Below the pieces are notes generated by a model. That model was given only the letters and a program-made list of their open reading frames with translations. It was not told the origin of the DNA and made no database searches. A DNA stretch of 60,520 nt, taken from positions 1 to 60,520 of the IMG/VR virus record IMGVR_UViG_3300044621_001247. One strand, given 5' to 3'. Each line of letters begins with the position of its first letter. Position 1 is the first letter of the stretch. Below, piece by piece: positions 43,562 through 58,762 of this stretch. Source of the DNA: a virus (taxonomy: Duplodnaviria; Caudoviricetes). The position numbers were made by a program, and so were the translations under genes.

Positions 43562-43636
43562 GTGCCGTGGGAGGTCTTGGCATCCTCAGCCTGATTTATA
43601 AACAGGTAAGAACAGGTTCGATTCCTGTACGGCATA
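43562..43636 (+). tRNA. tRNA-Ile(TAT), atypical
   Basis: Acceptor GTGCCGT/ACGGCAT, D stem GAGG/CCTC, anticodon arm CCTGA-TTTATAA-ACAGG (A31:A39 mismatch), T arm ACAGG-TTCGATT-CCTGT. Confidence 0.8.
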
Positions 43637-43717
43637 CATCAACAACCGACCGTGCGCCATGTGGATCCACGCACGGTTCGGAGACTACAAGGATCCACTG
43701 ACTATGGAGACATCGAC

Positions 43718-44086
43718 ATGATTAGGTTTGTTACTGACAGCGAAAGAAGCGGCAAGAGCGTGACTGGTCTGCTTGCCCTCCTTTTCGGCATCGGCTTCTT
43801 CTGGTTCACCTTCCTCTCACCTGAGACGGTGAACTCTGCCACGAAGGCAAACTACTGCCTCGTCGCGGCTGCTTTGTCGTTCGCGGGATACCTGTGGTTC
43901 CGCCTTCAGGAGACGAAGGCATGGCTCGAAAGCGAGGAGAAGGGTCGCAACGATGACCGCAAGGAAAACTACAGCAACGAGTCCATCCGTGGTCTGCACG
44001 ACCGCATCGACCGCCTTGAGGAGCGTTCCAAGTGCAAGAACGGCGGCGGGTGCATGGCAGACAACGAAGACACATTCGGATTGTGA
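43718..44086 (+). CDS. Two-TM membrane protein
   Basis: SD GGAG; two hydrophobic helices and a charged C-terminus. Confidence 0.7.
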   Translation: MIRFVTDSERSGKSVTGLLALLFGIGFFWFTFLSPETVNSATKANYCLVAAALSFAGYLWFRLQETKAWLESEEKGRNDDRKENYSNESIRGLHDRIDRLEERSKCKNGGGCMADNEDTFGL

Positions 44087-44098
44087 GTCAAGTCCTGA

Positions 44099-44105
44099 CT
44101 AAATA
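44099..44105 (+). promoter_or_regulatory. Candidate late promoter (CTAAATA) upstream of the tRNA array
   Basis: Close match to T4 TATAAATA. Confidence 0.55.
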
Positions 44106-44178
44106 GGTTCCGTCCACCTACCTGGGGAAACGACAAGGACGGCAGAGGGGAGCGCATTCTGCGATAACGCTCTTTCGT

Positions 44179-44250
44179 GCGGATGTAACTCAGAGGTAGA
44201 GTCTCGGTTTTCCAAACCGATGGTCGTGGGTTCAAATCCCATCGTCCGCT
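44179..44250 (+). tRNA. tRNA-Gly(TCC)
   Basis: TCGGT-TTTCCAA-ACCGA anticodon arm; complete cloverleaf. Confidence 0.95.
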
Positions 44251-44251
44251 T

Positions 44252-44322
44252 TGCGAGTGAGTGAGACGGCAACACACTAGGCTCATAATCTAGGGAAATG
44301 GGTTCGACTCCCATACTCGCTA
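44252..44322 (+). tRNA. tRNA-Met/Ile2(CAT), atypical
   Basis: CTAGG-CTCATAA-TCTAG; T arm ATGGG-TTCGACT-CCCAT; 1:72 mismatch. Confidence 0.85.
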
Positions 44323-44324
44323 TT

Positions 44325-44398
44325 GTGACTGTAGAACAAATGGATAGTTCAGGAGATTGTGATTCTCCCCGTTGCGGGTTCAAGTCCCGCCAGTCACC
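44325..44398 (+). tRNA. tRNA-His(GTG)
   Basis: GGAGA-TTGTGAT-TCTCC; acceptor GTGACTG/CAGTCAC, C73. Confidence 0.93.
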
Positions 44399-44410
44399 CT
44401 CTGTGATAAC

Positions 44411-44481
44411 TGCCCGATTGTGTAATGGTAGCACCCGAGACTCTGATTCTCGTTGTCCTGGTTCGAGTCCAGGTTGGGCAA
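44411..44481 (+). tRNA. tRNA-Gln(CTG)
   Basis: CGAGA-CTCTGAT-TCTCG. Confidence 0.93.
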
Positions 44482-44488
44482 CTTTTCC

Positions 44489-44560
44489 GTGGGGATAACT
44501 CAGTAGGTAGAGTAGCGGACTGAAAATCCGTCAGCGAAGGTTCGATTCCTTCTCCTCACA
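44489..44560 (+). tRNA. tRNA-Phe(GAA)
   Basis: GCGGA-CTGAAAA-TCCGT. Confidence 0.94.
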
Positions 44561-44561
44561 T

Positions 44562-44632
44562 TGGTCTGTAGCACAACGGTAGTGCGCCGTCCTGTTAGGA
44601 CGGGGTTACAGGTTCAAATCCTGTCGGACCAG
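44562..44632 (+). tRNA. tRNA-Asn(GTT)
   Basis: CCGTC-CTGTTAG-GACGG, G73. Confidence 0.93.
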
Positions 44633-44633
44633 T

Positions 44634-44706
44634 TGGACTGTGGCTCAGTAGGCAGAGCATTCCCTTGATAAGGGAGAGGTCGTTGGTTCGATTCCAACCA
44701 GTCCTA
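44634..44706 (+). tRNA. tRNA-Ile(GAT)
   Basis: TTCCC-TTGATAA-GGGAG. Confidence 0.92.
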
Positions 44707-44712
44707 TTCGAC

Positions 44713-44795
44713 TGATCGTTTCCCGAGCAGCAAAGGGGAGAGTCTGTAAAACTCTTGGTCTTCGACCTTCGTAGGTGCAAGTCCTACACGATCAA
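44713..44795 (+). tRNA. tRNA-Tyr(GTA)
   Basis: AGAGT-CTGTAAA-ACTCT, long variable arm GGTC-TTC-GACC, T loop TGCAAGT. Confidence 0.88.
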
Positions 44796-44804
44796 CTTCA
44801 GAGA

Positions 44805-44878
44805 CGGGACATGGCTCAGTTTGGTAGAGCGTTCGCTTTGGGAGCGAGATGTCGCAGGTTCAAATCCTGCTGTCCCGA
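44805..44878 (+). tRNA. tRNA-Pro(TGG)
   Basis: TTCGC-TTTGGGA-GCGAG; CGG...CCGA acceptor. Confidence 0.95.
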
Positions 44879-44888
44879 TTGTGTGTCT

Positions 44889-44960
44889 GCCCTCATAGTA
44901 TAGCGGCTATTACCGTTGATTTGTAATCATCAGACCTCAGTTCGATTCTGAGTGGGGGCT
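44889..44960 (+). tRNA. tRNA-Thr(TGT)
   Basis: GTTGA-TTTGTAA-TCATC; GCC...GGCT acceptor. Confidence 0.92.
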
Positions 44961-44969
44961 TTCAAAAAC

Positions 44970-45101
44970 CTTCCTCTTGCCTGTAATGCGCAAAGGCTCA
45001 AGTAGAGGAGAAAATGGAGAACACCACTCCATTGTGGGTTTCGCGGAAAACGGATTGGGTACTTGCAAAGCCCTACCGAATGTTCCAAGGTTGTCCCACC
45101 A
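44970..45101 (+). ncRNA. Unidentified structured RNA within the tRNA array
   Basis: Three consecutive stem-loops; the last is closed by GTGGG/CCCAC and ends in CCA. Confidence 0.4.
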
Positions 45102-45105
45102 GTTC

Positions 45106-45179
45106 GGTCTAGTAGATTAGTTGGCTAAATCGTTGGACTTTCACTCCAAAGACCGTGGGTTCGACTCCCACCTAGATCA
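45106..45179 (+). tRNA. tRNA-Glu(TTC)
   Basis: TTGGA-CTTTCAC-TCCAA. Confidence 0.93.
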
Positions 45180-45186
45180 TTCTTCC

Positions 45187-45549
45187 ATGCCATGCTATGC
45201 AATCTCCATCCGTGAAGACACGCAGCACCTCCTCAAGGACGGCGGGGGATACCTCTTCTACAGGAAGAAGTCCCTTGCCGTCGAGGTCTGCGATGAGATG
45301 AATGCCCTGCGGAAGGGAATGAAACTGGAGCAGGTCTATTCGGTCTGCAAGGTGGACGAGAAGGATTGGAAGGGATACCCCTTCACATACGACAAGGAGT
45401 TCGATGATGACGGTTCCAGAGGAGATGTTCAACGCTATACGAAACGCACGGCACTTCATGCTGGCACTGATGGATCCAAAGCAGACTCCAAAGGTTCCAA
45501 GAGAAGTCCGAAAGAGGGCAAGGGACAGACTCAGGCACTTCCCTTCTGA
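45187..45549 (+). CDS. Hypothetical protein (start re-called after tRNA-Glu)
   Basis: MPCYAISIRED...; 3' part overlaps the next ORF. Confidence 0.55.
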   Translation: MPCYAISIREDTQHLLKDGGGYLFYRKKSLAVEVCDEMNALRKGMKLEQVYSVCKVDEKDWKGYPFTYDKEFDDDGSRGDVQRYTKRTALHAGTDGSKADSKGSKRSPKEGKGQTQALPF

Positions 45550-45751
45550 GTTCGACATCAGCGAGATGGAAAAGTTCCATGCCCTCAGGGATCAGGATCC
45601 AAACATCCTTTTCGGAGAGTGCATGAAGAGGCTTGACTCCATCCGTGGGGAGATTACCATAGCGGAGCGAAAGTTGAGCGATGTCGGCAACGACATCGTG
45701 ACCGCGATCAGGAACACCAGAGGAGGCAACGATGCCCAACAGCAAGGCTAG
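45404..45751 (+). CDS. Phage hypothetical protein
   Basis: MTVPEE...TPKVPREVRKRARDRLRHFP motif; SD AAGGAG. Confidence 0.72.
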   Translation: MMTVPEEMFNAIRNARHFMLALMDPKQTPKVPREVRKRARDRLRHFPSEFDISEMEKFHALRDQDPNILFGECMKRLDSIRGEITIAERKLSDVGNDIVTAIRNTRGGNDAQQQG

Positions 45752-45998
45752 GAATGTCGCGAGGAAGCACCGCAAGTCCAGGATTCGGTGGAAGAACAAG
45801 AACAAGGCAAGCCTGGCTCTAGCCAAGGACAAGGCATCGAAGCCCAAGAAGAAGGTCTCGGTGTTCGACAGGGCAAGGGCGGCACAGCAGAATGTTCCCC
45901 TGTCGGGGGCAACCCCGTCTGCCGTATCTAACCCGACAGGGGAACGCCGCACCGCTTCGATGATGACTTTCGACGAACTCAAGGCAACTGGAGGCTGA
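45732..45998 (+). CDS. Basic hypothetical protein
   Basis: SD GGAGG; Lys/Arg-rich. Confidence 0.65.
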   Translation: MPNSKARNVARKHRKSRIRWKNKNKASLALAKDKASKPKKKVSVFDRARAAQQNVPLSGATPSAVSNPTGERRTASMMTFDELKATGG

Positions 45999-45999
45999 G

Positions 46000-46269
46000 A
46001 TGGAAAAGACACAGATGGTCGAGTCCCTTCACCGTGGAATCTGCGAGGTGGTGTTCACCAAGGCAGACGGCACGGAGCGCACCATGAAATGCACACGGTC
46101 GCAGAGCCATGCTCCCATTTCCGTTCCCGCATCCAACCTCCTGACTGAGGACGGGTCGGTCGGACCCGATGTCATTCCCGTGTGGGATGTCGAGGCAGGG
46201 CAATGGAGGTCGTTCAACGCGAAGTCGGTGAAGTCCTTCCGCTCCGTTGGTTCGTTGCTGAACGGATGA
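46000..46269 (+). CDS. WYL_2 / Sm-like SH3 beta-barrel protein
   Basis: V.FTKADGTERTM.CT...VWDVE...WRSF motif. Confidence 0.82.
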   Translation: MEKTQMVESLHRGICEVVFTKADGTERTMKCTRSQSHAPISVPASNLLTEDGSVGPDVIPVWDVEAGQWRSFNAKSVKSFRSVGSLLNG

Positions 46270-46276
46270 GCGAGTC

Positions 46277-46540
46277 GCCCCTCTAACTCAATGGTAGAGT
46301 AACGGACTTTCAAATGGAACTGCCGTGCAGGAATGCACGGATCGAATCTTGTCAAAGTCGGTGAACTCCCTGTCGAAAGACGAGACAACGCCGAGCCAAG
46401 CGCAGCGATGCGAAGGTGTAGAGACTTGACGGCAAGCACCCAGAACGGGTGAAGGCAAAGTCCAGACCACGAACGGAAGGCGGCGAAAGCCGAAGTGGTA
46501 GGTAATCCGTCAGTTGTGGGTTCGAGTCCCACGGGGGGTA
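46277..46540 (+). tRNA. tRNA-Lys(TTT) split by a group I intron (exons 46277-46310 and 46503-46540)
   Basis: Joined exons give GCCCCTC...ACGGA-CTTTTAA-TCCGT...GTGGG-TTCGAGT-CCCAC-GGGGGGT-A. Confidence 0.9.
46311..46502 (+). ncRNA. Group I intron (IC3-like, 192 nt, no ORF)
   Basis: P (CAAAGTCGGTGAA), Q (AACGCCGAGCCAAG), R (GGTGTAGAGACTTGACG) and S (GAAGGCAAAGTCC) core elements; follows U and ends in G; P1 guide TGGAA. Confidence 0.93.
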
Positions 46541-46544
46541 TTGC

Positions 46545-46626
46545 GCCAGCGTGGCGGAATGGCATACGCAGGATGCTCAAAACATCCGGATCCTAGATCG
46601 TGCAGGTTCGACTCCTGTCGCTGGTA
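46545..46626 (+). tRNA. tRNA-Leu(CAA)
   Basis: GGATG-CTCAAAA-CATCC, long variable arm. Confidence 0.94.
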
Positions 46627-46638
46627 TTGGAGGAACAC

Positions 46639-47010
46639 ATGCAGACACAGAACATGACCAAGACAGAACTCATCGAAAACATCGAAATCCTCGCGGAAAA
46701 GTGCGAGAAGTTGATCGCCGAACTCGCGCAGCGCACCGCCGCTCTTGATCAAATGACGGTTCACCGCAATGCGACGATAGAACATCGAGACATCACGCAG
46801 CAGGTGCTAAACGGTATCACCGTTGCGTTATCTCAGCGCACCGCCGACCTCGCCCGCGTGACCGCCGAGCGCGACGAGGCGCGGCGGTGGGTGTGCAGAA
46901 AGACGGTCTACGCAGAAAGGAAACCCCACGATTTGGTTGATTCCACCGAAGCAAAGGTTCTCCTCGAAGCACAGATGCGCGGCTGGGACTGCTTCGCAAA
47001 GGAGGGGTGA
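46639..47010 (+). CDS. Coiled-coil hypothetical protein (TAERDEARR...RGWDCF family)
   Basis: SD GGAGG; shares DNA blocks with the next ORF. Confidence 0.75.
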   Translation: MQTQNMTKTELIENIEILAEKCEKLIAELAQRTAALDQMTVHRNATIEHRDITQQVLNGITVALSQRTADLARVTAERDEARRWVCRKTVYAERKPHDLVDSTEAKVLLEAQMRGWDCFAKEG

Positions 47011-47303
47011 TGAGCGACTTCCCCGAGATCACCACCGAGCAGATCGTGGCTCGTCTCCGCATGATCGTCGCAGAGCCAGATTCGCTCTGCAAGACCGACA
47101 TTCACTACATAGAGGACGCTGCTGACGAACTGGAGAGCAAGGGCGACGAGATCGCCCGCCTCACCGCCGAGCGCGACGAGGCGCGGCGGGAACTCTGCCA
47201 GTTGAAGTCACGATTGGGAGCGGACTACTACGTTCCATCATTGAATCCCGAGGGTTACGCCAAAGTGCGCGGCTGGGACTGCTTCGAGGAGGAAGGCAAG
47301 TGA
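47007..47303 (+). CDS. Hypothetical protein (TAERDEARR...RGWDCF family)
   Basis: GTGA-coupled paralogue of the previous ORF. Confidence 0.75.
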   Translation: MMSDFPEITTEQIVARLRMIVAEPDSLCKTDIHYIEDAADELESKGDEIARLTAERDEARRELCQLKSRLGADYYVPSLNPEGYAKVRGWDCFEEEGK

Positions 47304-47548
47304 GCAACAAACCAGACATCGTGCATAGACTAGAGCGACAACCGCTATTCGTCACCCACGAAACATTCGGCAATCCTGTTTGCTGCGTGATGACGAGCGA
47401 GACTTGCAAAATGAATCAAGAGGAGCGCATGGAGGCTGCATCGGAGATCAAACGCCTCCGCGCCGACCTCGAGAAAGTTCGCACAGAGCGCGACCAAGCG
47501 TTGTGGGAATCAACACAGGACTTCTGGGGAAAGACAAGTGACTACTGA
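47300..47548 (+). CDS. Hypothetical protein (DIV.RL...EAA.EI.RLR type)
   Basis: GTGA-coupled. Confidence 0.7.
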   Translation: MSNKPDIVHRLERQPLFVTHETFGNPVCCVMTSETCKMNQEERMEAASEIKRLRADLEKVRTERDQALWESTQDFWGKTSDY

Positions 47549-47939
47549 AACATGGATCTTCATCGGCATCGGCATCTCACTGGTCTTGAACACCTACATG
47601 ATCCTTTCGTACTACTGGGTTCATCAGATGACATCGAGGGTGAACGACCTTGAACGGAATCTGCTCACTCACGGCAAGGGACTTGACGACCTCTCCAGAA
47701 GGATTTACAACCTTGAGCGGCAATCCGAATATCTCACATACCAATTGAGCCTCCACGGCAACAGCATTGCAACCCTGAAGCCACTGACCGACTACTTCGA
47801 GCACAAGAACAGGATGCAAGCAAAAACCAAACTTGCCGAACAGGATGAGTCTAAGATTGCAAAAGCAAAGAAACAGAAGGAAGAGGATGAGGCAAGACTC
47901 GCGGAACTGAAGAAGGAATTGGAAGGACTATTCAAGTGA
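47538..47939 (+). CDS. Membrane-anchored coiled-coil protein
   Basis: N-terminal TM helix, then heptad repeats. Confidence 0.7.
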   Translation: MTTETWIFIGIGISLVLNTYMILSYYWVHQMTSRVNDLERNLLTHGKGLDDLSRRIYNLERQSEYLTYQLSLHGNSIATLKPLTDYFEHKNRMQAKTKLAEQDESKIAKAKKQKEEDEARLAELKKELEGLFK

Positions 47940-48217
47940 AGCAGAACGAAGACCTCAAGTTCATCATCCACTTTGACCATGACTTCAGCAAGGAAATGTC
48001 GGAACAGATCGGCAACCACATCAAACAGCAATGGGAGAGTGGGATCATGGTCTTTCCGAATACTGTGTGCAGAGTGGTGATCATCGACAAGCATGGAGAT
48101 GCGAAGTACGAGTGGACTCGCCCCAAGGAGGTGATCATCGGTTCTCCCCCCAAGGAGGAAGAAAAGTCCTGGTTCAAGGAGGAAGAAAAGTCCTGGTTCT
48201 CTCGCTTGTTCTCGTAG
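47936..48217 (+). CDS. Hypothetical protein
   Basis: GTGA-coupled; C-terminal KEEEKSWF x2. Confidence 0.65.
   Translation: MKQNEDLKFIIHFDHDFSKEMSEQIGNHIKQQWESGIMVFPNTVCRVVIIDKHGDAKYEWTRPKEVIIGSPPKEEEKSWFKEEEKSWFSRLFS
48151..48198 (+). repeat. Perfect 24-nt tandem duplication
   Basis: CAAGGAGGAAGAAAAGTCCTGGTT x2. Confidence 0.97.
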
Positions 48218-48230
48218 GGGTTGAACTTTG

Positions 48231-48237
48231 CTAAATA
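48231..48237 (+). promoter_or_regulatory. Candidate late promoter (CTAAATA)
   Basis: 20 nt upstream of the ATG at 48258, followed by SD GAGGAG. Confidence 0.6.
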
Positions 48238-48257
48238 TCTCCACAGAGGAGATTTCC

Positions 48258-48791
48258 ATGAAGACATACAGAGAGTTCGTAGCAGAGGCAGCATCCCGTT
48301 CCCTTTCCCGCCTACACGGTCACCTACAGGCAGGGCATATGGTGGGGTTCATCTCCGCAAGCCGTGGGAATCTTTCTCCTGCCGAGAACAACAAGAGGAC
48401 GAAGGAACTGCACAAGAGCCTCAAGGGGCATGGCTTTACCCCCGTCCCCGTCAAGGGCGAGTACATCGAAGACCACAATGGAGAGAAGAAGAAGGTAAAG
48501 GAGAAGACCTTCATGATCCATTCGGGTCAACTTTACGGTCATGCAGAGAATCCCACGAATGCGCATCGCGAGACGCTTCGCACCTTGAAGACGCTAGGAG
48601 CGCAGCATGATCAAGACACCGTCCTCACCGTCTCCAAGAAGCACGGCAGCGTGTTCCACGGCACGGGCAAGTCGGACTGGGTTCCGAAGGGCAAGAGGGC
48701 GCGTATCGGCGGTGCTGGAATCAGCACGAATGTTGGCGACTTCAACACTCGGTTGAAGGGCAAGAAGTTCATAGTAGGTGGAGGAGACTGA
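48258..48791 (+). CDS. Putative internal head protein with T4-type capsid-targeting sequence
   Basis: N-terminus MKTYREFVAE versus T4 IP CTS MKTYQEFIAE; body has ISASRG...EN..R...GEY.E...EK.F...QD.VL. Confidence 0.72.
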   Translation: MKTYREFVAEAASRSLSRLHGHLQAGHMVGFISASRGNLSPAENNKRTKELHKSLKGHGFTPVPVKGEYIEDHNGEKKKVKEKTFMIHSGQLYGHAENPTNAHRETLRTLKTLGAQHDQDTVLTVSKKHGSVFHGTGKSDWVPKGKRARIGGAGISTNVGDFNTRLKGKKFIVGGGD

Positions 48792-48792
48792 G

Positions 48793-49017
48793 ATGAGTGG
48801 ATTCTATTCGACATGGCTAAACCATCACTTTCGGGGAAAGCGCACATTCGATGTGCGACTTTTCAGGATGACACCCGCAGAGCGCATTGCCCGATACGGG
48901 ACGGACATGGTCGCTGAACTGCGACAGATGTCTCCCGAGGAGAGGAAGACCATCTACGGGTCGGACTTCTCCGAGTACCTGAATGTTTCTGCGTCGAACC
49001 CCATCCGCAGCGTTTGA
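48793..49017 (+). CDS. Hypothetical protein
   Basis: SD GGAGGAG; two M(T/S)P.ER...YG.D repeats. Confidence 0.65.
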   Translation: MSGFYSTWLNHHFRGKRTFDVRLFRMTPAERIARYGTDMVAELRQMSPEERKTIYGSDFSEYLNVSASNPIRSV

Positions 49018-49071
49018 TTCCAAATCAATAAGAAGATCCAAAGAGTCTTTTCGATTCTTGGTCGTGTGGTA

Positions 49072-49099
49072 TTGACTCCACCCCAGGATCGGTTAGACT
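49072..49099 (+). promoter_or_regulatory. Sigma70-type early promoter
   Basis: TTGACT-N16-TAGACT. Confidence 0.7.
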
Positions 49100-49187
49100 T
49101 GTGAAGCAACAGTTGAGGAGCGCACGGGGGCAGCCGATGCGCCAACCTCACCATCAAAGTGATGCTGCCCTTCAGGAGATTCAGACA

Positions 49188-49469
49188 ATGGCTACCGCAA
49201 CCAAGCCCACCCTCAGCAAGACCCGTCAGGTCATCAACCACCTCCGTTCGGGCAAGACCCTGACGCAGGATCAGGCGTTTAGCAAGTTCGGCGTGAGGAA
49301 CCTCCGCGCCATGGTCTCGTCCATCCGTGAGCAGTTCGAGCGTTACGGCAACTGGATGCTCCAGACGGACACCAACAAGCGTGGCGAGACGGTCTACCGC
49401 CTCACCGACATCCACCCTGGTCAGCGCGTCTGGGGCTTCGACGCTCAGGGCAATCGTTACCGTCTTTGA
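49188..49469 (+). CDS. Winged-helix/HTH DNA-binding protein
   Basis: VINHLRSGKTLT...A...FGVRNLRA.VS.IR...YRL pattern; SD CAGGAG. Confidence 0.75.
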   Translation: MATATKPTLSKTRQVINHLRSGKTLTQDQAFSKFGVRNLRAMVSSIREQFERYGNWMLQTDTNKRGETVYRLTDIHPGQRVWGFDAQGNRYRL

Positions 49470-49489
49470 ATGACGGGAATAGTTGAAAC

Positions 49490-49604
49490 GGTCGCGTGGG
49501 AACGGCAGTCGGATACCGCGATCTATCCGATGATCATCGTCTAGCATGAGCCAGACGGCGGCAGGGCAAGGGGAGGACGCTCCCCTCCCTGCCGTTCCTG
49601 TTTT
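49490..49604 (+). ncRNA. Structured intergenic RNA / switchable terminator
   Basis: Four predicted helices, a loop pseudoknot and an alternative terminator pairing (see findings). Confidence 0.5.
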
Positions 49605-49617
49605 ACGGAGGCATGTC

Positions 49618-49761
49618 ATGGACAACCGCAGACACAGCGCGGGGAAGGGAGACTCTCCCCGTCCCGTTGACCGCAAGAAGTGGTCGGAGAACTGGGACAG
49701 GATCTTCGGGAAGAAGCCGAAGAAGCAGTCCGTGCAGAAGAAGACCAAGAAGTCACGATAG
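49618..49761 (+). CDS. Small basic protein (GKGDSPRP...ENWDRIFG)
   Basis: SD GGAGG; motif typical of small phage proteins. Confidence 0.7.
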   Translation: MDNRRHSAGKGDSPRPVDRKKWSENWDRIFGKKPKKQSVQKKTKKSR

Positions 49762-49775
49762 TCAAACTTCCACAT

Positions 49776-49849
49776 ACACCTGTAACTCAGTAGGATAGAG
49801 TAACGGTTTTCTAAACCGTCAGTCACAGGTTCGAGTCCTGTCGGGTGTG
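49776..49849 (+). tRNA. tRNA-Arg(TCT)
   Basis: ACGGT-TTTCTAA-ACCGT; acceptor ACACCTG/CGGGTGT. Confidence 0.94.
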
Positions 49850-49853
49850 CTTT

Positions 49854-50194: not shown

Positions 50195-50554
50195 ATGTAC
50201 ATAACCAGCCTTCTCACTCTTCAGAACCAACTTCGCATATTCCATTGGCAGACCACATCGTATGCGGAGCATGAGGCATTCGGAAAGGCATACGGAGATC
50301 TAGGAGACCTGATCGACACATTCATCGAGACGATGATGGGAAAGAAGGGGAGGATCCTCTCCAGCGGTGGATTCAGCATCCACCTCACCAACTACCGCGA
50401 GACTGATCCCGTGGCATTCCTCAAGCAGTACGATACCTACCTCACATCGCTGGACGACGAGTTGTTGGAAGGAGACACGGAACTCAAGAACATCAGGGAC
50501 GAGATGAAGGGCGTGGTGAACCACACAATCTACCTGCTCACCCTCAACAAGTGA
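50195..50554 (+). CDS. Ferritin/Dps-like four-helix protein
   Basis: FHWQT.SYAEH.A...Y..L..LID.F.E...G...NIRDEM...YLLTL. Confidence 0.82.
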   Translation: MYITSLLTLQNQLRIFHWQTTSYAEHEAFGKAYGDLGDLIDTFIETMMGKKGRILSSGGFSIHLTNYRETDPVAFLKQYDTYLTSLDDELLEGDTELKNIRDEMKGVVNHTIYLLTLNK

Positions 50555-50832
50555 GCAAACGACATCGTTGATCTTTGCATACTACCTGGTCACACGGGGG
50601 TTCGATACCCCCCGACTCCATTCAAACCTACGGGGTCGAACTGGAATCGACGGCTAGATGTTCGCAACAGGGAGATGTCCGAGAGGTCGCTGACAACCCT
50701 CGTAAAATCCCAATGTCGGCAACCATAAACGCCGCGAACATGCGGATGGCTGCTTGAAGCAGTGGGGTCCGATCCACCCGCGACTGAACGGATCATCGGC
50801 ACAGGGTCTCCGAAAGGAGGCTTTGTGCTTTT
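50555..50832 (+). ncRNA. ssrA: Circularly permuted (two-piece) tmRNA
   Basis: T arm GGGGG-TTCGATA-CCCCC plus CGACTCC-A (50596-50620) precedes GGGGTCG-AACTGGAATCGAC (50632). The acceptor stem has G3:U70. Tag ORF 50719-50757 encodes ATINAANMRMAA*. Outer ends are approximate. Confidence 0.9.
50799..50832 (+). terminator. Intrinsic terminator ending the tmRNA coding piece
   Basis: GCACAGGGTCTCC-GAAA-GGAGGCTTTGTGC-TTTT. Confidence 0.75.
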
Positions 50833-50902
50833 CGGGAAGCCATAGATAGCCATGTACCCGTGATAGTTTCAGAATGGAGTCACCATCATGGAGCAGCCCC
50901 CT

Positions 50903-51346
50903 ATGGCATTCCTCACACCTGAGTTCATCTCCCTCATCGGAGGAAGCCTCGTCGGCTTCCTCTTCCGCCACATGGCAGAGAAGCGGGAGAACGAACGGCA
51001 GATGGTCGAGAACATCATCAACCTCAACAAGCAGTCGAACGAGAACCACGACAAGGCTGTCGAAAGGGTTCCCATCGACATGGGCAAGACCATTCGGCGG
51101 ATCATCGTCCTCGCGGTGCTGTTTGCCACGATGCTTGCCCCGTTCATCCTTCCGTTCTTCGGCATCCCGACCTTCCTCGAGGTGGATCAGTCCAATCCCG
51201 ACAGGCTCTTCGGGCTGATTCCCGCCTACACGCAGAAGTTCATAGTCGAGATCAACGGGTTCATCTATCCATCCGAGAACAGGCAGATCCTACTGAGCCT
51301 CGTAGGCTTCTACTTCGGCAATGCCGCAGGAAAAGGAAAGACCTAA
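50903..51346 (+). CDS. Putative holin (3-TM type)
   Basis: Three hydrophobic segments ending in VGFYFG; CATAGATA late-like motif at 50841. Confidence 0.55.
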   Translation: MAFLTPEFISLIGGSLVGFLFRHMAEKRENERQMVENIINLNKQSNENHDKAVERVPIDMGKTIRRIIVLAVLFATMLAPFILPFFGIPTFLEVDQSNPDRLFGLIPAYTQKFIVEINGFIYPSENRQILLSLVGFYFGNAAGKGKT

Positions 51347-51851: not shown

Positions 51852-52268
51852 ATGGATTCAGGTTCCGACCACGCCCTTTCCCTCTCCCGCCTCTCCGACG
51901 ATGCCATGCAGCGCGGCTATCCCGACAACTTCTCCTCGCAGGAGGAGTGGGATGCCTACAACGAGCGTCTCGACGCTGAGGAGCGCACCGCAGAGCATCG
52001 CGCCCTGCACGGCACGGACGAAGTCGCCGTCAACTACCCCGAGACGGTAGTTCTCCGTGCTGCCGATGGGTGCGAGTCGTGCGGCGGCAAGGGATTCGTG
52101 GTCGAGTCGCACGGCGAGGAGATCGACTGCGACTGCTGCTTCTATGCCGACCTCTCTCCCGACGAGACGGCGGCTGTCGAGATGGGGTCTTACATCATCC
52201 AGCCTTCCGACTCGTATGTCCGCAAGATGGCTGAACGCGCCGAAGTCGAACCCGAAGGAGGCAACTGA
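51852..52268 (+). CDS. Acidic protein with DnaJ-like Zn finger (CxxCxGxG...CxCC)
   Basis: CESCGGKG...CDCC; start re-called at the leaderless ATG. Confidence 0.7.
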   Translation: MDSGSDHALSLSRLSDDAMQRGYPDNFSSQEEWDAYNERLDAEERTAEHRALHGTDEVAVNYPETVVLRAADGCESCGGKGFVVESHGEEIDCDCCFYADLSPDETAAVEMGSYIIQPSDSYVRKMAERAEVEPEGGN

Positions 52269-52272
52269 GAAC

Positions 52273-53223
52273 ATGAGCAAGTACCGCACGAACACGAAGC
52301 ATCCAGTCGCGCCGCCGTACAAGAGCCACCGAACCAAGAGCAACGCCGTGACCGTCCCCGCCAACTCCATCAACCCCGACTACTTCAAGACCGCCCATGC
52401 CCATGAGGGCGTGGTTCGCAATCTCAAGAATGTGTATGGTCCCCTCACTCGCAGCAGCGGGATGAGCGCGTGGCGCGTGTGGGTTCGCATCACGACCACC
52501 GAAGGGTGGGTTCTCATGGGCTACATCGGCAATGCCGCGACCGAGGCTGAACTGCCGAAGGTGGTCAAGGGCGACAAGATCATCCTTGATCCTCTCGTCC
52601 TCTCTTCGTGGCAGCGCGTGGACGGCATGGACGAGCGTCCCGCCGACTTCTCCCGCACCCTGCGCGGCAAGATCGTGCGCGGTGCGGCTGCTGCGGCTCC
52701 CGCGACCGTGCCGCTGACGAACAAGCCTTTGGCTACGGGGGTGTCCTTCACGGCGGCAGTTCAGTCGAGTGTGGCTGCTGCTTCGGCTCCTGCCCCTCGC
52801 CGCCGATCCTCCCGCTCCCAATGGCTGAAGCAGAACGAGGCTCTCCGCGACAGCCTTGCCATCCCCGCGATCTGGTGCCTGACCAACACCACCGACGAGA
52901 GCCACCTGAAGGTCTTCCTGCCGAATGTGTGGAACGGCTCATACGAAATCCGCGAGTACCGCAGGAACGATGCGGGATTGTGGATCTTCCGTGAGGGGCG
53001 TTCGTGCGTCCGCAAGGAAGATGCCGTTGCCCAATGGAAGAGCGACGAGTCCAGCGGCAAGTGGGGCAACCGCCGCAACATCACCAAGTACATCGATGTG
53101 GATGAGATCTTCAATGGATGGGGTGCTGAACATCCCGCCGACAGGTATGCGCGTCTCATCGGCGGCACGGACTTCGTCACCCTCACCGTCACCTTCGGCA
53201 ACTCGTTCCCCCGCAAGTCCTGA
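52273..53223 (+). CDS. Hypothetical early protein
   Basis: SD GGAGG; C-ending codon bias; two domains joined by an Ala/Pro linker. Confidence 0.75.
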   Translation: MSKYRTNTKHPVAPPYKSHRTKSNAVTVPANSINPDYFKTAHAHEGVVRNLKNVYGPLTRSSGMSAWRVWVRITTTEGWVLMGYIGNAATEAELPKVVKGDKIILDPLVLSSWQRVDGMDERPADFSRTLRGKIVRGAAAAAPATVPLTNKPLATGVSFTAAVQSSVAAASAPAPRRRSSRSQWLKQNEALRDSLAIPAIWCLTNTTDESHLKVFLPNVWNGSYEIREYRRNDAGLWIFREGRSCVRKEDAVAQWKSDESSGKWGNRRNITKYIDVDEIFNGWGAEHPADRYARLIGGTDFVTLTVTFGNSFPRKS

Positions 53224-53241
53224 ACGAAAGGAACAGACACC

Positions 53242-53769
53242 ATGAATACGCTCACCTACACCAATTTCCGCGCTGCGCTGTACGATCTTCCCCGTGATGT
53301 GCGGATCAAGTTCGCGCTCTGGTGCATCGGACGCGCCAACAAGTTCGCTTATTCGGATGTCAATCCGCAACTCGCCGTCGTGCATCGTTATCTCGACGGC
53401 AAGGCAACCAAGGAAGAGGTTGCTTCCGCGAGGGATGTTCTCTATCGTTCTCCCGTCTGTTCATCCGTCCGTGCGGTGTATAGCCTTTGCTGCGACATCT
53501 GCGAGGAGAACTCGCAGGGTGAACCTTCATTGGATCAGTCGTGCTTCGGGGCTATCTCCGTCTCTGCGTATGGCGTGTCGTTGGGAGTCGCTGAGAAGAA
53601 GTGGGAGAAGTGGATACTGAAGCATGAGTTTCAGTATCCGCCTCTGAGTTGCGGACGGCAGCAAGAGGAGAGGGCGGGATTTGATGCGATGCGGAAGGAA
53701 GCCCGTAAGAAGGAGCATGCCACGCAGACGAAGGAACTCATTCGACTTCTAGAGGAGACCAAGCGATGA
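53242..53769 (+). CDS. Hypothetical protein (FALWC...YLDG.AT.EE domain)
   Basis: Paralogous N-terminus and C-terminus with the next ORF. Confidence 0.75.
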   Translation: MNTLTYTNFRAALYDLPRDVRIKFALWCIGRANKFAYSDVNPQLAVVHRYLDGKATKEEVASARDVLYRSPVCSSVRAVYSLCCDICEENSQGEPSLDQSCFGAISVSAYGVSLGVAEKKWEKWILKHEFQYPPLSCGRQQEERAGFDAMRKEARKKEHATQTKELIRLLEETKR

Positions 53770-54260
53770 CTGACACCGACATCAATCGTCTGATCGACCG
53801 CCTGTCCGACCGCCAACGCCGAGAGTTCGGGCTATGGTGCGCCGAGCGCATCCGCCACCTGATGACCGACCCGCGTAGCACCGCCGCTCTCGATGTCGTG
53901 GCGCGGCATCTGCGCGGCGAGGCGACCGACGCGGAACTGGCTGCGGCAACGGCTGCGGCGTGGGCTGCGGCTGCGGCGCGGGCTGCGGCGGCGGCGTGGT
54001 CTGCGGCGGCGTGGGCGCGGGATGCGGCGTGGTCTGCGGCAGATGCGGCGTGGTCTGCGGCGTGGGATGCGGCGTGGGCTGCGGCGCGGGATGCGGCGCG
54101 GGCTGCGGCGGCTGCGGCTGCGGCGCGGGCTGCGGCGTGGTCTGCGGCAGATGCGGCTTCGGCTGCGGCGCGGGCTGCGGCGTGGTCTGCGGCATGGGAT
54201 GCAGAACGCGCCGCGCAGTTTGCAGAACTGAACCGTCTTCTGGAGGAAACCAAGCGATGA
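53766..54260 (+). CDS. Ala-rich (xAAW) repeat protein, Imm5-like N-domain
   Basis: FGLWCAERIRHL..DPRS..AL...L.GEAT..EL followed by [SAD]AA[WRA] tetrapeptide repeats. Confidence 0.78.
   Translation: MTDTDINRLIDRLSDRQRREFGLWCAERIRHLMTDPRSTAALDVVARHLRGEATDAELAAATAAAWAAAAARAAAAAWSAAAWARDAAWSAADAAWSAAWDAAWAAARDAARAAAAAAAARAAAWSAADAASAAARAAAWSAAWDAERAAQFAELNRLLEETKR
53939..54203 (+). repeat. 12-nt unit coding minisatellite (e.g. TCTGCGGCGTGG)
   Basis: Variant units repeated in tandem. Confidence 0.92.
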
Positions 54261-54544
54261 CTGACAACAAGAACGACATCTCGTCCCGCATCACCGACCG
54301 CCTCGAACTCGTCCGCGTCGAGACTGCCAACTGCCGTGCAGGTCGCACCTACGGCTTTCCCGACGAGATCAAGGCGATGATCTTGACCAACCTTGCCCAT
54401 GCCCGTTGGAACCGTCCTCTCCTTGACGAAGCGACCAAGCGGCTCCATGATGTCACGGAGTATGAGGTTCGTTGGCAGTTTGGCGACCTCGACCGCCTCA
54501 TTGAGGCAGAAACCGACCGTTTGTCGGAGGAAGAGGGGGATTGA
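54257..54544 (+). CDS. Hypothetical protein
   Basis: ATGA-coupled MTDNKNDISSR... Confidence 0.7.
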   Translation: MTDNKNDISSRITDRLELVRVETANCRAGRTYGFPDEIKAMILTNLAHARWNRPLLDEATKRLHDVTEYEVRWQFGDLDRLIEAETDRLSEEEGD

Positions 54545-54569
54545 CACCATCCCCGCCTTCGGATAGAAT
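54541..54569 (+). promoter_or_regulatory. Strong sigma70-type promoter
   Basis: TTGACA-N17-TAGAAT. Confidence 0.8.
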
Positions 54570-54615
54570 CATACCACTCGACCGATCCGTTTCCCAAACC
54601 TTTCAGGAGAACCTT

Positions 54616-55071
54616 ATGCCGACCAAGACCAAGAAGACCAAGCGCACCGCGAAGACTACCAAGAGCAAGACCAAGGTGGTCGTGACTGCCGCCGTCCGTC
54701 CTGCGGGTCGCTCGACCCGATCCGCCACCGCGTCTGCCATGAGCAGCGGGCTTGCCGCGCTGACCGAGGCAGGATCTCGCAGCACGGCACAGGTGAAGCC
54801 CACGACCGCGTCCAAGCCCAAGTCGGGCAAGGAACCTTCGCTCGTCTTCGAGGCTCCTGCGGTGCAGAAGCACACCCGTGCCGAAGCGGAGGAGGCGATC
54901 CGCGACCTCCGTGCCATCGTCGCCAAGATGTACGGGGACGGCAAGTTCAAGAACTCGGCGGCTCTCATGGTTCCGCTGACCGACATCGACAACGCGACCT
55001 ACTACAAGTCCAGCGGGTGCTACGACCGCAGCATCGACATCTGCAACAAGTGCAAGGACAAGATCAACTGA
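54616..55071 (+). CDS. Hypothetical protein with basic Lys/Thr-rich N-terminus
   Basis: SD CAGGAG; MPTKTKKTKRTAKTTKSK... Confidence 0.75.
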   Translation: MPTKTKKTKRTAKTTKSKTKVVVTAAVRPAGRSTRSATASAMSSGLAALTEAGSRSTAQVKPTTASKPKSGKEPSLVFEAPAVQKHTRAEAEEAIRDLRAIVAKMYGDGKFKNSAALMVPLTDIDNATYYKSSGCYDRSIDICNKCKDKIN

Positions 55072-55123
55072 CACAGCCCGAGCGACAGAAAACCCCGAAT
55101 CAGACCGACAGGAGAAACCCATC

Positions 55124-55483
55124 ATGCCGAACAACAGCAACGACAACAACAACGACATCGTCCCGCCCCTCCACAACATCACCGCCGAGCACAACATCAA
55201 GACGCTCGACCTCGTTGGTGGATTGATCATGGGGAGCATCAAGTCGAACACCCCCATCACCGTGGATCGGCTCCCTCTCATCATGGAGGCAATCGCGCAG
55301 GTTCGCATCTACTGCACCTTCCGCGATCAGAAGGAACTCACGGATGCCAACAGCCTTGCCGTCATCGCATCTGCGCGGGTGCTGCTCAAGCGCGGGATCG
55401 GTTCCAAGCCTTCTGATGCGGAGCAAACCGATGCGGCAGCGCAGGAGATCCTCGCTGACCTCCGCAAGAACGGCATCGGCTGA
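55124..55483 (+). CDS. Hypothetical protein
   Basis: SD CAGGAG; strong codon bias. Confidence 0.75.
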   Translation: MPNNSNDNNNDIVPPLHNITAEHNIKTLDLVGGLIMGSIKSNTPITVDRLPLIMEAIAQVRIYCTFRDQKELTDANSLAVIASARVLLKRGIGSKPSDAEQTDAAAQEILADLRKNGIG

Positions 55484-55510
55484 TCGGACTGCACAACCAA
55501 CATTCGGGTC

Positions 55511-55540
55511 GGAGGGGGCGAAAGCCCCCTCCATCCTTTC
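55511..55540 (+). terminator. GC-rich hairpin, weak U tract
   Basis: GGAGGGGGC-GAAA-GCCCCCTCC-ATCCTTTC. Confidence 0.55.
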
Positions 55541-55558
55541 AAACGGGAGAAACACACA

Positions 55559-55831
55559 ATGAGCGGCAACAACGACATCGTGGAACAGATGTGGACGGAA
55601 CTCCAGTCCTACCAGCCGTTCGCTGACGCGGACGGGCATGGCGACACATGGAGAACCATGTGCGAGAAGAGGACGAAGGAAGCGGCATTTATAGCGGCAG
55701 ATGCGGCGCGCCCGCGTCGGCGTACGCGGCGGGAATGGGCTTGGCGGGCGACTTTGGCGGCGATGACGGCGGCGGATTGTGAAGCATACAAAGCCATCGT
55801 GAATATCCGCAAGGCAAAGGAGGGACGATGA
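55559..55831 (+). CDS. Hypothetical protein
   Basis: SD GGGAG; MW.EL..YQP.AD.DGHG.TW..MC motif. Confidence 0.7.
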   Translation: MSGNNDIVEQMWTELQSYQPFADADGHGDTWRTMCEKRTKEAAFIAADAARPRRRTRREWAWRATLAAMTAADCEAYKAIVNIRKAKEGR

Positions 55832-56097
55832 CACAGACCGAAACCCAGACAGACCAGTACGGGCTTCCCATGACGAAGATGTACACCGTCGAGTACATCG
55901 TCCTGATCGACGGGGAGGAGATGGACGAGACCTACTATGAGATCGTGTGGGCAAGGGATCCGCACGATGCCGCCTACAAGGCTCAGGAGATCTTCTACGA
56001 CAACGAGAGCATCGACGGCACAAGCATGGCATTCAAGTGGGTCGAGGTGTATGAGAATCAGTCAGCGATGAGGAACACCAAGGAGAACGAGCGATGA
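55828..56097 (+). CDS. Acidic hypothetical protein
   Basis: ATGA-coupled. Confidence 0.7.
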   Translation: MTQTETQTDQYGLPMTKMYTVEYIVLIDGEEMDETYYEIVWARDPHDAAYKAQEIFYDNESIDGTSMAFKWVEVYENQSAMRNTKENER

Positions 56098-56558
56098 AGA
56101 AGACCACGAAGAAGAGCAACAAGAGCAGCGTCCGTCTTGTGAACCAGCCGCTTTCCGAATGGCGGGTGGTCGCACGAAAGTACGAGAAGCCTACCCAGGA
56201 GATTTTCGATGAGAATCAACGATGGATTCCAGGTGGTGTCCGTTTCGTGATCTGCAAGGTCTGCTATGACTCGAAGGGAAAGCCCAATGGCATCGTGGAA
56301 TATCCCGACACAACGGTACGGGTGAACTATTCCGACTACGAAGGCAAGGACGAGTTTCAGCGTCCCTTGCACAAGGCAGAGCAGGAGAGCCGACAAAACC
56401 TCAGGGACATGATGAGGGCGTGGCATCTTCCGATCCTTGAGGAGATCGACCGCACGGGAGACTACCGCATCCGCGAGTGGAAGGGAACCAAGGAGTTCAA
56501 CCGACTGGAACGACTGTGCGACTGCCCCAAGAAGACCAAGAGGAAGACCAAGCGATGA
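56094..56558 (+). CDS. Hypothetical protein
   Basis: ATGA-coupled. Confidence 0.7.
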   Translation: MKKTTKKSNKSSVRLVNQPLSEWRVVARKYEKPTQEIFDENQRWIPGGVRFVICKVCYDSKGKPNGIVEYPDTTVRVNYSDYEGKDEFQRPLHKAEQESRQNLRDMMRAWHLPILEEIDRTGDYRIREWKGTKEFNRLERLCDCPKKTKRKTKR

Positions 56559-57802: not shown

Positions 57803-58038
57803 AGGACAACCACAGCAATAGCGACCATGTGGAGACGGACACGGAAAAGAGGTGGGAGCAGGGCATCCCTCATCACCCAGAGTCCGAGAAGATTTTCGCC
57901 TTCCTCCGAAAGGCAGACGAGAAGTACGACTTCTTCGACTGGAAGGCGGGAGGTGACGGGGACAATGGAGAGGAACTGATGTATGCTCTTGATGTCTACT
58001 TTGACCTCAAGGATCGAAACAAGGAGAGCAAGCAATGA
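57799..58038 (+). CDS. Hypothetical protein
   Basis: GTGA-coupled; RWE.G..HHP.S...FDWK.GGDGDNGE.LMY motif. Confidence 0.72.
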   Translation: MKDNHSNSDHVETDTEKRWEQGIPHHPESEKIFAFLRKADEKYDFFDWKAGGDGDNGEELMYALDVYFDLKDRNKESKQ

Positions 58039-58642: not shown

Positions 58643-58662
58643 TGGATTTCACGCAGATTTGC

Positions 58663-58756: not shown

Positions 58757-58762
58757 TAGGGC

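What the first reader, a model, noticed from the sequence alone, without database searches (positions are those of the whole stretch)
50555..50832. Phage-encoded circularly permuted (two-piece) tmRNA
Seen: the 3' half of a tRNA-like domain (T arm GGGGG-TTCGATA-CCCCC, then CGACTCC-A, ending 50620) comes before the 5' half (GGGGTCG-AACTGGAATCGAC, starting 50632), with an 11-nt spacer between them. The two strands give a 7-bp acceptor stem with G3:U70. GGCTAG can pair with CTGGTC as helix 2. Downstream lie a GCA resume codon, the tag ATINAANMRMAA*, a stop-codon hairpin (GCTGCT-TGA-AGCAGT), a pseudoknot (GTGGG/CCCGC with GATCC/GGATC) and a terminator. Known: G3:U70 is the AlaRS determinant and C-terminal AA is the ClpXP-type degron. 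Permuted tmRNAs are known in Alphaproteobacteria, some marine cyanobacteria, a betaproteobacterial lineage and some mitochondria. The phage tmRNAs I know of are one-piece. Inference: this is a compact, possibly independently permuted, phage tmRNA with no encoded CCA and no smpB in the window.
Basis: partly seen in the sequence, partly recalled or inferred. Interest (0 to 1): 0.9.

Follow-up and report, generated by a model that had tools for sequence, protein, structure and literature searches.

The report
Two-piece tmRNA gene in lake phage
A large T4-like phage from lake water carries a genuine split (circularly permuted) tmRNA gene for rescuing stalled ribosomes, but phage genes of this kind have been published, so it is a solid and fairly ordinary finding.

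Summary
ARAGORN calls a permuted tmRNA at 50530-50848. Rfam's tmRNA_permuted model scores 57.1 bits against a cut-off of 47 at 50561-50757. The window is a 34%-complete fragment of a T4-like myovirus.

The gene belongs to a large family on IMG/VR viral contigs (at least 117 contigs). In 77 distinct sequences the acceptor stem always pairs 7 of 7, G3:U70 is kept, and 4:69 shows all four Watson-Crick pairs. Helix 2, a distal helix, the T arm, a hairpin before the tag and the second pseudoknot helix all covary.

- The conserved tag is 8 residues, AANMRMAA, not 12.
- Phage two-piece tmRNAs are in print (PMC9004378). I confirmed them in Melnitz and HTVC008M.
- The 11-nt spacer and the missing CCA are normal for this family and for two cyanobacterial two-piece tmRNAs.

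What remains new: the family passes none of the alpha, beta or cyano models, has no blastn match in GenBank phages, and has an unusually short tag. Processing and activity were not tested.

The parts
50561..50620 (+). Acceptor piece, encoded first. It holds the distal-helix 5' strand GACATC (50561-50566), the helix 2 5' strand (50586-50592), the T arm (50596-50612), the 3' acceptor strand CGACTCC (50613-50619) and discriminator A (50620). No CCA follows.
   Evidence: Rfam RF04321 alignment. RNAalifold pair table on 77 sequences. Acceptor tally. The 5' end is inferred from the start of the Rfam match and of the conserved block, and was not mapped.
50621..50631 (+). Intervening spacer TTCAAACCTAC (11 nt). 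It would be removed when the precursor is cut into two pieces.
   Evidence: Sequence. Spacer lengths in the family are 5-173 nt. Removal is inferred from known two-piece tmRNA processing and was not tested.
50632..50657 (+). Start of the coding piece: 5' acceptor strand GGGGTCG (50632-50638), D-loop analogue AACTGGAATCGA (50639-50650), helix 2 3' strand (50651-50657).
   Evidence: G1-G2-G3 and the TGG..TCGA motif are conserved across the family.
50674..50702 (+). Distal-helix 3' strand GATGTC (50674-50679, pairs with 50561-50566), then a hairpin at 50680-50702 in the pseudoknot-1 position.
   Evidence: RNAalifold. Distal helix: GC 56 / AU 19 at one pair and UA 66 / CG 9 at another. Hairpin: AU 62 / UA 11 and CG 52 / GC 12 / UA 11.
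50731..50757 (+). Tag reading frame GCC GCG AAC ATG CGG ATG GCT GCT TGA, coding AANMRMAA*.
Evidence: ARAGORN. An 8-codon frame starts with GCC (58), GCT (18) or GGC (1) in 77 of 77 family sequences.
50749..50794 (+). Stop-codon hairpin (50749-50763) and 3' pseudoknot: helix a 50762-50766 with 50777-50781, helix b 50771-50775 with 50790-50794.
   Evidence: Helix a and the hairpin are invariant in 77 of 77, so they give no covariation evidence. Helix b has at least 4 bp at the homologous place in 77 of 77, with 20 different strand pairs.
50799..50832 (+). 13-bp hairpin with GAAA loop followed by TTTT. Probable 3' end or terminator of the coding piece.
   Evidence: MFE fold. A hairpin plus T run sits at the same place in relatives. 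Not called by the consensus terminator scan.
50195..50554 (+). Upstream DUF5856 gene. It ends 6 nt before the tmRNA gene, on the same strand, so co-transcription is possible.
   Evidence: Pfam PF19174, 71.1 bits. PHROG 858. No sigma-70-like promoter was found between the two.
43562..49850 (+). Array of 14 phage tRNA genes on the same strand. Like the tmRNA gene, none encodes CCA.
   Evidence: ARAGORN. Rfam gathering search lists 12 of the 14 as tRNA. 3'-end check gave 0 of 14 with CCA.

Best explanation
This is a functional ssrA gene of the known circularly permuted (two-piece) type, carried by a T4-like lake myovirus and sitting just downstream of the phage's tRNA gene array.

Proposed mechanism. 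All of the following steps are inferred, from established tmRNA and tRNA biology and from the two-piece tmRNA of Caulobacter (cited in PMC9004378); none was tested here.
- One precursor of about 270 nt (50561-50832) is transcribed, possibly together with the upstream DUF5856 gene.
- RNase P cuts 5' of G50632.
- The 11-nt trailer is trimmed back to A50620.
- A CCA-adding enzyme adds CCA. That enzyme would come from the host or from the unsequenced part of the phage.
- This gives a ~60-nt acceptor piece and a ~200-nt coding piece. They are held together by the 7-bp acceptor stem, helix 2 and a 6-bp distal helix.
- AlaRS charges the RNA through G3:U70 and A73.
- Host SmpB and EF-Tu deliver it to stalled ribosomes.
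- Translation resumes at GCC 50731 and adds AANMRMAA. The C-terminal Ala-Ala would mark the protein for host proteases while the ribosome is released.

For the phage, the likely benefit is keeping ribosomes free late in infection, when host mRNA is being destroyed. This too is inferred.
For: Shown:
- Two independent detectors call it.
- The window is a virus record with T4-like terminase, sheath, tube and baseplate genes.
- It has homologues on at least 117 IMG/VR contigs. ARAGORN of those 117 permuted, 0 standard and 41 nothing. Some of the 41 are cut by a contig end.
- In 77 distinct full-length sequences, the acceptor pairs 7 of 7 in 77 of 77. Pair 4:69 is G:C in 54, U:A in 11, C:G in 8 and A:U in 4. 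G3:U70 is kept in 76 by script. The 77th, L328, is a script artefact: its real strand GGGGCTG is visible.
- 16 of the 38 RNAalifold pairs have compensatory changes, spread over the distal helix, helix 2, the T arm and the pre-tag hairpin.
- Pseudoknot helix b is kept with 20 different strand pairs.
- The 8-codon tag is conserved as A-[ANE]-x-[ML]-[AR]-[MIVL]-A-A.
- The phage's own 14 tRNA genes also lack CCA, so CCA addition is needed in this system in any case.
- Related cultured phages carry permuted tmRNAs (PMC9004378, passages).
Against: - There is no expression or processing evidence.
- No smpB or CCA-adding enzyme is found in the fragment.
- No promoter-like site and no consensus terminator were called.
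- In this sequence the innermost pair of helix 2 is an A-C mismatch.
- The MFE fold of the uncut precursor does not form the acceptor stem.
- An 8-residue tag ending in MAA lacks most of the adaptor and protease determinants known for longer tags. Whether it acts as a degron is therefore open (recalled knowledge, not tested).
- The host is unknown.
Confidence: 0.85

Rival explanations
1. This is the same RNA, but from a separate, phage-specific origin. On this reading the family is a fourth two-piece lineage that became permuted independently of the alpha, beta and cyanobacterial ones.
For: - Lineage models all fail their cut-offs and match only the tRNA-like domain of the window: alpha 24.6 (cut-off 50), beta 36.3 (cut-off 84), cyano 40.4 (cut-off 70).
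- The family's 19-nt signature occurs in 18 places in the representative genomes of 185,579 species. Only 1 of these is a family member, and it lies on a 9.5-kb contig that looks like a phage.
- Some related phages carry a one-piece tmRNA in the same neighbourhood (L139, L141).
Against: - The layout of the tRNA-like domain (canonical T loop, no CCA, 6-13 nt spacer) is the same in two cyanobacterial two-piece tmRNAs.
- The family HMM matches those two (15.4 and 12.9 bits) and not the Melnitz or HTVC008M tmRNAs.
- The closest relative, L312, aligns over the full length of the beta model at 52.5 bits.
- Capture of host tmRNA genes by phages is the published explanation for Melnitz (PMC9004378).
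- Fast divergence of the mRNA-like part would also explain the failed cut-offs.
- The 19-mer scan demands exact identity, so diverged bacterial relatives would be missed.
Confidence: 0.1
2. The RNA is made and charged, but it serves the phage in another way than general ribosome rescue. It might compete with or replace the host tmRNA so that rescued proteins get a short tag with a different fate. [quoted passage not shown]
For: - The tag is only 8 residues and usually ends in MAA rather than the usual LAA.
- PMC9004378 raises selective tagging of host proteins as a possibility for Melnitz (passage).
- PMC11915505 mentions a tag-less mycobacteriophage tmRNA that inhibits host tmRNA when expressed in E. 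coli (passage).
Against: - A complete tag frame with a stop codon and terminal Ala-Ala is conserved in 77 of 77 sequences. That is what ordinary trans-translation needs.
- Nothing here distinguishes the possible fates of the tagged proteins.
Confidence: 0.15
3. It is a dead remnant: a piece of host ssrA picked up at a prophage attachment site, or a tRNA-like chance match.
For: tmRNA genes are common integration sites, and ssrA fragments occur in prophages (PMC9004378 and PMC11915505, passages).
Against: - All parts of a tmRNA gene are present and in the permuted order.
- Compensatory changes across 77 sequences show selection on the structure.
- The surroundings are T4-like virion genes and tRNA genes. 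None of the ORFs scanned against PHROGs or Pfam matched an integrase family. Not every ORF was scanned.
Confidence: 0.02

Closest known systems
Two-piece tmRNAs of the cultured T4-like phages Methylophilales phage Melnitz and Pelagibacter phage HTVC008M (Kyanoviridae)
   Same: - Phage-encoded, circularly permuted ssrA in aquatic T4-like myoviruses.
- Both pass RF04321, at 113.4 and 90.6 bits.
- These phages are among the best cultured matches to this phage's terminase (58.7%) and baseplate wedge (33-34%).
   Different: - Their tmRNAs encode CCA and carry alpha-type tags, ANDNYVPVDYALAA and ANFNEYALAA.
- PMC9004378 reports a glutamine riboswitch in Melnitz. No riboswitch family matched 50400-51000 at E up to 10.
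- The window's family HMM finds no similarity to them.
Two-piece tmRNAs of two cyanobacterial genomes (Rfam cyano_tmRNA, RF01851)
   Same: - Canonical T loop, no encoded CCA, very short spacer: 6 nt in L391 and 13 nt in L393, against 11 nt here.
- It is the best lineage-specific score for the window, 40.4 bits.
   Different: - The score is below the 70-bit cut-off and covers only the tRNA-like domain.
- The cyanobacterial tag is twice as long, ANNIVRFSRQTAPVAA.
- The mRNA-like part and pseudoknots are not alignable.
Betaproteobacterial two-piece tmRNA (Rfam beta_tmRNA, RF01850)
   Same: The tRNA-like domain matches at 36.3 bits. The closest relative, L312, aligns over the whole model at 52.5 bits.
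   Different: Both scores are below the 84-bit cut-off. The beta consensus shown continues with CC after the discriminator, and this gene does not.
One-piece phage tmRNAs (for example in mycobacteriophages and Streptomyces phages, and in relatives L139 and L141 of this phage)
   Same: They are a phage-borne ribosome-rescue RNA next to tRNA genes. In L139 and L141 the gene lies beside the same DUF5856 gene.
   Different: They have the standard gene order (RF00023, 130.8 bits in L139). The window has the permuted order.

Membership tests
Permuted (two-piece) tmRNA, Rfam RF04321 | The 3' half of the tRNA-like domain is encoded before the 5' half | tested here: met
   The T arm and 3' acceptor strand (50596-50620) precede the 5' acceptor strand (50632-50638). 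ARAGORN labels it tmRNA*.
Permuted (two-piece) tmRNA, Rfam RF04321 | Score at or above the curated gathering score | tested here: met
   57.1 bits against 47.
Permuted (two-piece) tmRNA, Rfam RF04321 | 7-bp acceptor stem with G3:U70 and discriminator A (alanine identity) | tested here: met
   GGGGTCG pairs with CGACTCC, followed by A. The stem is kept with covariation in 77 of 77 family sequences.
Permuted (two-piece) tmRNA, Rfam RF04321 | Helices that hold the two pieces together (helix 2 and beyond) | tested here: met
   Helix 2 and a 6-bp distal helix show compensatory changes. One A-C mismatch occurs in the window's helix 2.
Permuted (two-piece) tmRNA, Rfam RF04321 | Tag reading frame that starts at an alanine codon and ends in Ala-Ala plus a stop | tested here: met
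   AANMRMAA* at 50731-50757. An 8-codon frame is conserved in 77 of 77.
Permuted (two-piece) tmRNA, Rfam RF04321 | The precursor is cut into two RNAs, CCA is added, and the RNA is charged with alanine and used with SmpB | not testable with these tools
   No RNA data could be used. No smpB was found in the 34%-complete fragment.
alpha_tmRNA (RF01849) | Gathering score of 50 bits | tested here: not met
   24.6 bits, tRNA-like domain only. There is also no encoded CCA, unlike the alpha-type tmRNAs of Melnitz and HTVC008M.
beta_tmRNA (RF01850) | Gathering score of 84 bits | tested here: not met
   36.3 bits, model positions 84-160 only. Relative L312 reaches 52.5 bits over the full length.
cyano_tmRNA (RF01851) | Gathering score of 70 bits | tested here: not met
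   40.4 bits, model positions 52-124 only. The layout of the tRNA-like domain is nevertheless the same as in L391 and L393.

The most novel reading that the evidence does not exclude
The window's gene is the most G+C-rich member seen so far of a large two-piece tmRNA clade that appears restricted to phages. The locus itself is found in lake-water DNA runs. The clade has an ultra-short 8-residue tag and passes none of the three bacterial two-piece models. It may have evolved for a long time inside phage genomes, or may have become permuted there, given that some relatives carry one-piece genes at the same locus. In many members the spacer that is cut out has grown to a conserved, apparently structured insert of 95-173 nt with no Rfam match. 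That insert could be a second functional RNA released during tmRNA processing.
Probability: 0.15. Interest if true: 0.6.

Novelty: new member of a known kind. Interest (0 to 1): 0.3.

Why it matters
It adds a well-supported example, with covariation evidence, of large aquatic phages carrying their own ribosome-rescue RNA alongside tRNA genes.

It also points to a sizeable viral tmRNA family that has no blastn match in the GenBank phage collection searched here. That family's short tag and variable spacer make it a handy natural series for two questions:
- How little tag and how little spacer does a two-piece tmRNA need?
- How do phages acquire and reshape host translation RNAs?

It does not overturn anything. 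Phage two-piece tmRNAs were reported in 2022.

Tried and rejected
Searches that led nowhere:
- Near relatives by neighbouring genes. 58 loci were found with the DUF5856 gene and 70 with the downstream 152-aa gene. ARAGORN found 0 permuted and 2 one-piece tmRNAs in these 128 loci. blastn then showed that ARAGORN had missed one permuted gene, L124. Synteny was therefore a poor route, and a signature pattern worked instead.
None matched the window beyond the tRNA-like domain.
- blastn of the window and of a family member against GenBank phages gave no match, or only 9-11% coverage at the T arm or the 3' hairpin.
- Sampling 121 genomes of the phylum of one cyanobacterial genome gave only 2 permuted tmRNAs over the cut-off. 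That is too few for a tree, so no phylogeny was attempted.
- My first script for the frame of the upstream motif matched only 7 sequences and was discarded. The codon count replaces it.
- My first unanchored search for pseudoknot helix b picked up chance complements. The anchored version replaces it.
- Sequencing runs: no RNA holder was listed. 24 DNA runs of lake-water or freshwater metagenomes hold all or part of the stretch, 10 of them possible sources of this DNA. Read laying was not used, because DNA contigs cannot show RNA ends.
- The promoter and terminator scan found nothing.
- A literature search for freshwater cyanophage tmRNA gave nothing on this family. PMC5964084 mentions tmRNA only in its reference list.
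- I did not find this family or its tag described in the three searches made. Table S1 of PMC9004378, which lists the 53 two-piece phage tmRNAs, is a supplement. It may include members of this family.

Rejected ideas:
- Host ssrA at a prophage end. The GC rise at about 52 kb made me consider it, but the record is a T4-like virus and genes continue on both sides.
- The 12-residue tag.

Full report
**What is there.**
- T arm: GGGGG, loop TTCGATA, CCCCC (50596-50612).
- 3' acceptor strand CGACTCC (50613-50619) and discriminator A (50620).
- An 11-nt spacer (50621-50631).
- 5' acceptor strand GGGGTCG (50632-50638), then AACTGGAATCGAC.

The two strands give a 7-bp stem with G3:U70. ARAGORN reports a permuted tmRNA at 50530-50848 with tag AANMRMAA*. 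Rfam's tmRNA_permuted model (RF04321) matches 50561-50757 end to end at 57.1 bits, against a gathering score of 47. The 275-nt precursor folds at -104.5 kcal/mol, z = -3.19 against dinucleotide shuffles. That fold contains the distal helix, helix 2, the T arm and a 13-bp 3' hairpin followed by UUUU. It does not form the acceptor stem. The consensus scan called neither a promoter nor a terminator here.

**Whose gene it is.**
- The window is a linear IMG/VR virus record of 60,520 bases, estimated 34% complete.
- It encodes a T4-type large terminase, tail sheath, tail tube, and baseplate wedge and hub proteins. It also encodes an RtcB ligase and a CobS-like ATPase.
- The terminase is 58-59% identical to those of Synechococcus myoviruses and of Methylophilales phage Melnitz. 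The baseplate wedge protein is 31-34% identical to those of Synechococcus phages, Pelagibacter phage HTVC008M and Melnitz. No close cultured relative exists in that collection.
- Fourteen tRNA genes lie at 43562-49850 on the same strand. None encodes CCA.
- The tmRNA gene begins 6 nt after a DUF5856 gene.
- The DNA of the locus is held by lake-water metagenome runs.

**Relatives and covariation.**
Loci found through the two flanking genes were mostly uninformative. They did reveal L124, a permuted tmRNA that ARAGORN missed but RF04321 scores at 85 bits. L124 shares the window's stop-codon hairpin and pseudoknot start. ARAGORN of the 117 permuted, none standard, and 41 nothing. Some of the 41 are cut by a contig end.

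I took 76 distinct full-length copies plus the window and aligned them as A1.
- Acceptor stem: pairs 7 of 7 in 77 of 77.
  - Pairs 1:72 and 2:71 are invariant.
  - Pair 3:70 is G:U in 76. The exception, L328, is an artefact of my script, which stopped at an earlier chance 7-mer. Its real strand GGGGCTG is visible.
  - Pair 4:69 is G:C in 54, U:A in 11, C:G in 8 and A:U in 4.
  - Pairs 5:68 and 6:67 also vary while staying paired.
- RNAalifold finds 38 pairs, 16 of them with compensatory changes.
  - Distal helix (window 50561-50566 with 50674-50679): GC 56 / AU 19, and UA 66 / CG 9.
  - Both halves of helix 2.
  - T arm: GC 38 / AU 33 / UA 6 at its first pair.
  - The hairpin before the tag.
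- The stop-codon hairpin and the GTGGG/CCCGC helix never vary, so they say nothing either way.
- The second pseudoknot helix (window GATCC with GGATC) is present at the homologous position in 77 of 77, with 20 different strand pairs such as GGTTC/GAACC and CCCGGTTT/AAACCGGG.

**The tag.**
All 77 sequences have an 8-codon frame before the stop. So it is not conserved as a coding position. I take the tag to be AANMRMAA, as ARAGORN does. Only an experiment can settle this for this particular phage.

**Spacer and CCA.**
No family member encodes CCA. The three bases after the discriminator are TTA, TTC, TTT, CTT, CTC or CTA. By script, spacers are 5-6 nt in 20 sequences, 11-13 nt in 5, and 28-173 nt in the rest. 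The single 28-nt value is the L328 artefact. The window's 11 nt is therefore unremarkable.

**Comparison with what is known.**
- Phage two-piece tmRNAs are published. PMC9004378 (abstract and passages read) describes one in Melnitz. It also reports that 402 isolate phage genomes carried 133 unique tmRNAs. ARAGORN called 53 of those two-piece, and 50 of the 53 came from marine or aquatic phages. Of 47 Melnitz-like contigs, 17 had permuted tmRNAs.
- I confirmed RF04321 matches in Melnitz (113.4 bits) and HTVC008M (90.6 bits). I found none in three other records tested: S-SRM01, S-H38 and Desulfovibrio phage 7757.
- The Melnitz and HTVC008M tmRNAs are alpha-like. They encode CCA and have longer ANDN-type or ANFN-type tags. 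The window's family HMM does not match them.
- Two cyanobacterial two-piece tmRNAs (L391, L393) have the same tRNA-like layout as the window: no CCA and spacers of 6 and 13 nt. The family HMM matches them weakly, at 12.9 and 15.4 bits, in the tRNA-like domain only.
- The lineage-specific Rfam models all fail on the window: alpha 24.6 against 50, beta 36.3 against 84, cyano 40.4 against 70. The closest relative, L312, aligns over the full beta model at 52.5 bits, also below the cut-off. L124's best lineage match is cyano at 35 bits. The family's origin is unresolved.
- The signature 19-mer occurs 18 times in the representative genomes of 185,579 species. Seventeen are unrelated sequences, and one is a family member on a 9.5-kb contig of a metagenome-assembled genome.
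- blastn finds no family member in 50,697 GenBank phage records.
- PMC11915505 (passages) explains that RF04321 merges the three lineage models and covers only the tRNA-like domain. It lists 79 bacteriophage tmRNA sequences in its database.

**Mechanism.**
Shown:
- The gene has every sequence and structure feature of a two-piece tmRNA.
- Those features are under selection in many phages.

Inferred from established tmRNA and tRNA biology:
- Transcription as one precursor.
- An RNase P cut before G50632.
- Trimming of the 11-nt trailer to A50620.
- CCA addition.
- Alanylation through G3:U70.
- Delivery by host SmpB and EF-Tu.
- Resumption at GCC 50731.
- Tagging with AANMRMAA and release of the ribosome.

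No smpB or CCA-adding enzyme is in the fragment, but two thirds of the genome is missing. Whether an 8-residue tag ending in MAA is an efficient degron is open.

**Verdict.**
It is wrong about its rarity and about the tag length.
- The claim of an independent permutation has no positive support.
- The gene is a new member of a known kind. It belongs to a large phage-borne family that I did not find described in three literature searches.

Noticed in passing
window 43562-49850: Array of 14 tRNA genes on the + strand, several abutting with no gap. None encodes CCA, and nearly all are followed by T or TT.
   Followed up: partly
window 56477-57802 and 58763-60082: An RtcB-type RNA ligase gene (PHROG 1075, E 5e-81) and a CobS-like ATPase gene (PHROG 249, E 7e-90) lie a few kb downstream of the tRNA and tmRNA region. 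RtcB next to a tRNA set suggests repair of cleaved tRNAs.
   Followed up: no
window about 52000-60520: G+C rises from about 0.54 to 0.57-0.62. Most ORFs there have no Pfam or PHROG match.
   Followed up: no
L139 2426-2760 and L141 2426-2757: Phages with a related DUF5856 gene carry a standard one-piece tmRNA (RF00023, 130.8 bits in L139; tag ANTQYRLAA) beside that gene and beside tRNA genes. One-piece and two-piece forms therefore occupy the same neighbourhood in related phages.
   Followed up: partly
A1 columns about 70-245; for example L286 3467-3857 and L124 1068-1235: In most family members the spacer between the two tmRNA halves is 71-99 nt or 167-173 nt. It is conserved within each length class and contains obvious stem-forming repeats. 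No Rfam family matched these inserts.
   Followed up: partly
L380 (9,495-base contig of a metagenome-assembled Bacteroidota genome): It carries a family-member tmRNA (tag AAPMAMAA) whose printed 110-nt stretch matches viral contig L312. It is probably a phage contig binned into a bacterial genome.
   Followed up: no
window 3-2009 and 2019-3929: Two adjacent ORFs on the - strand match tail-sheath families. The first matches only in its N-terminal 100 residues.
   Followed up: no
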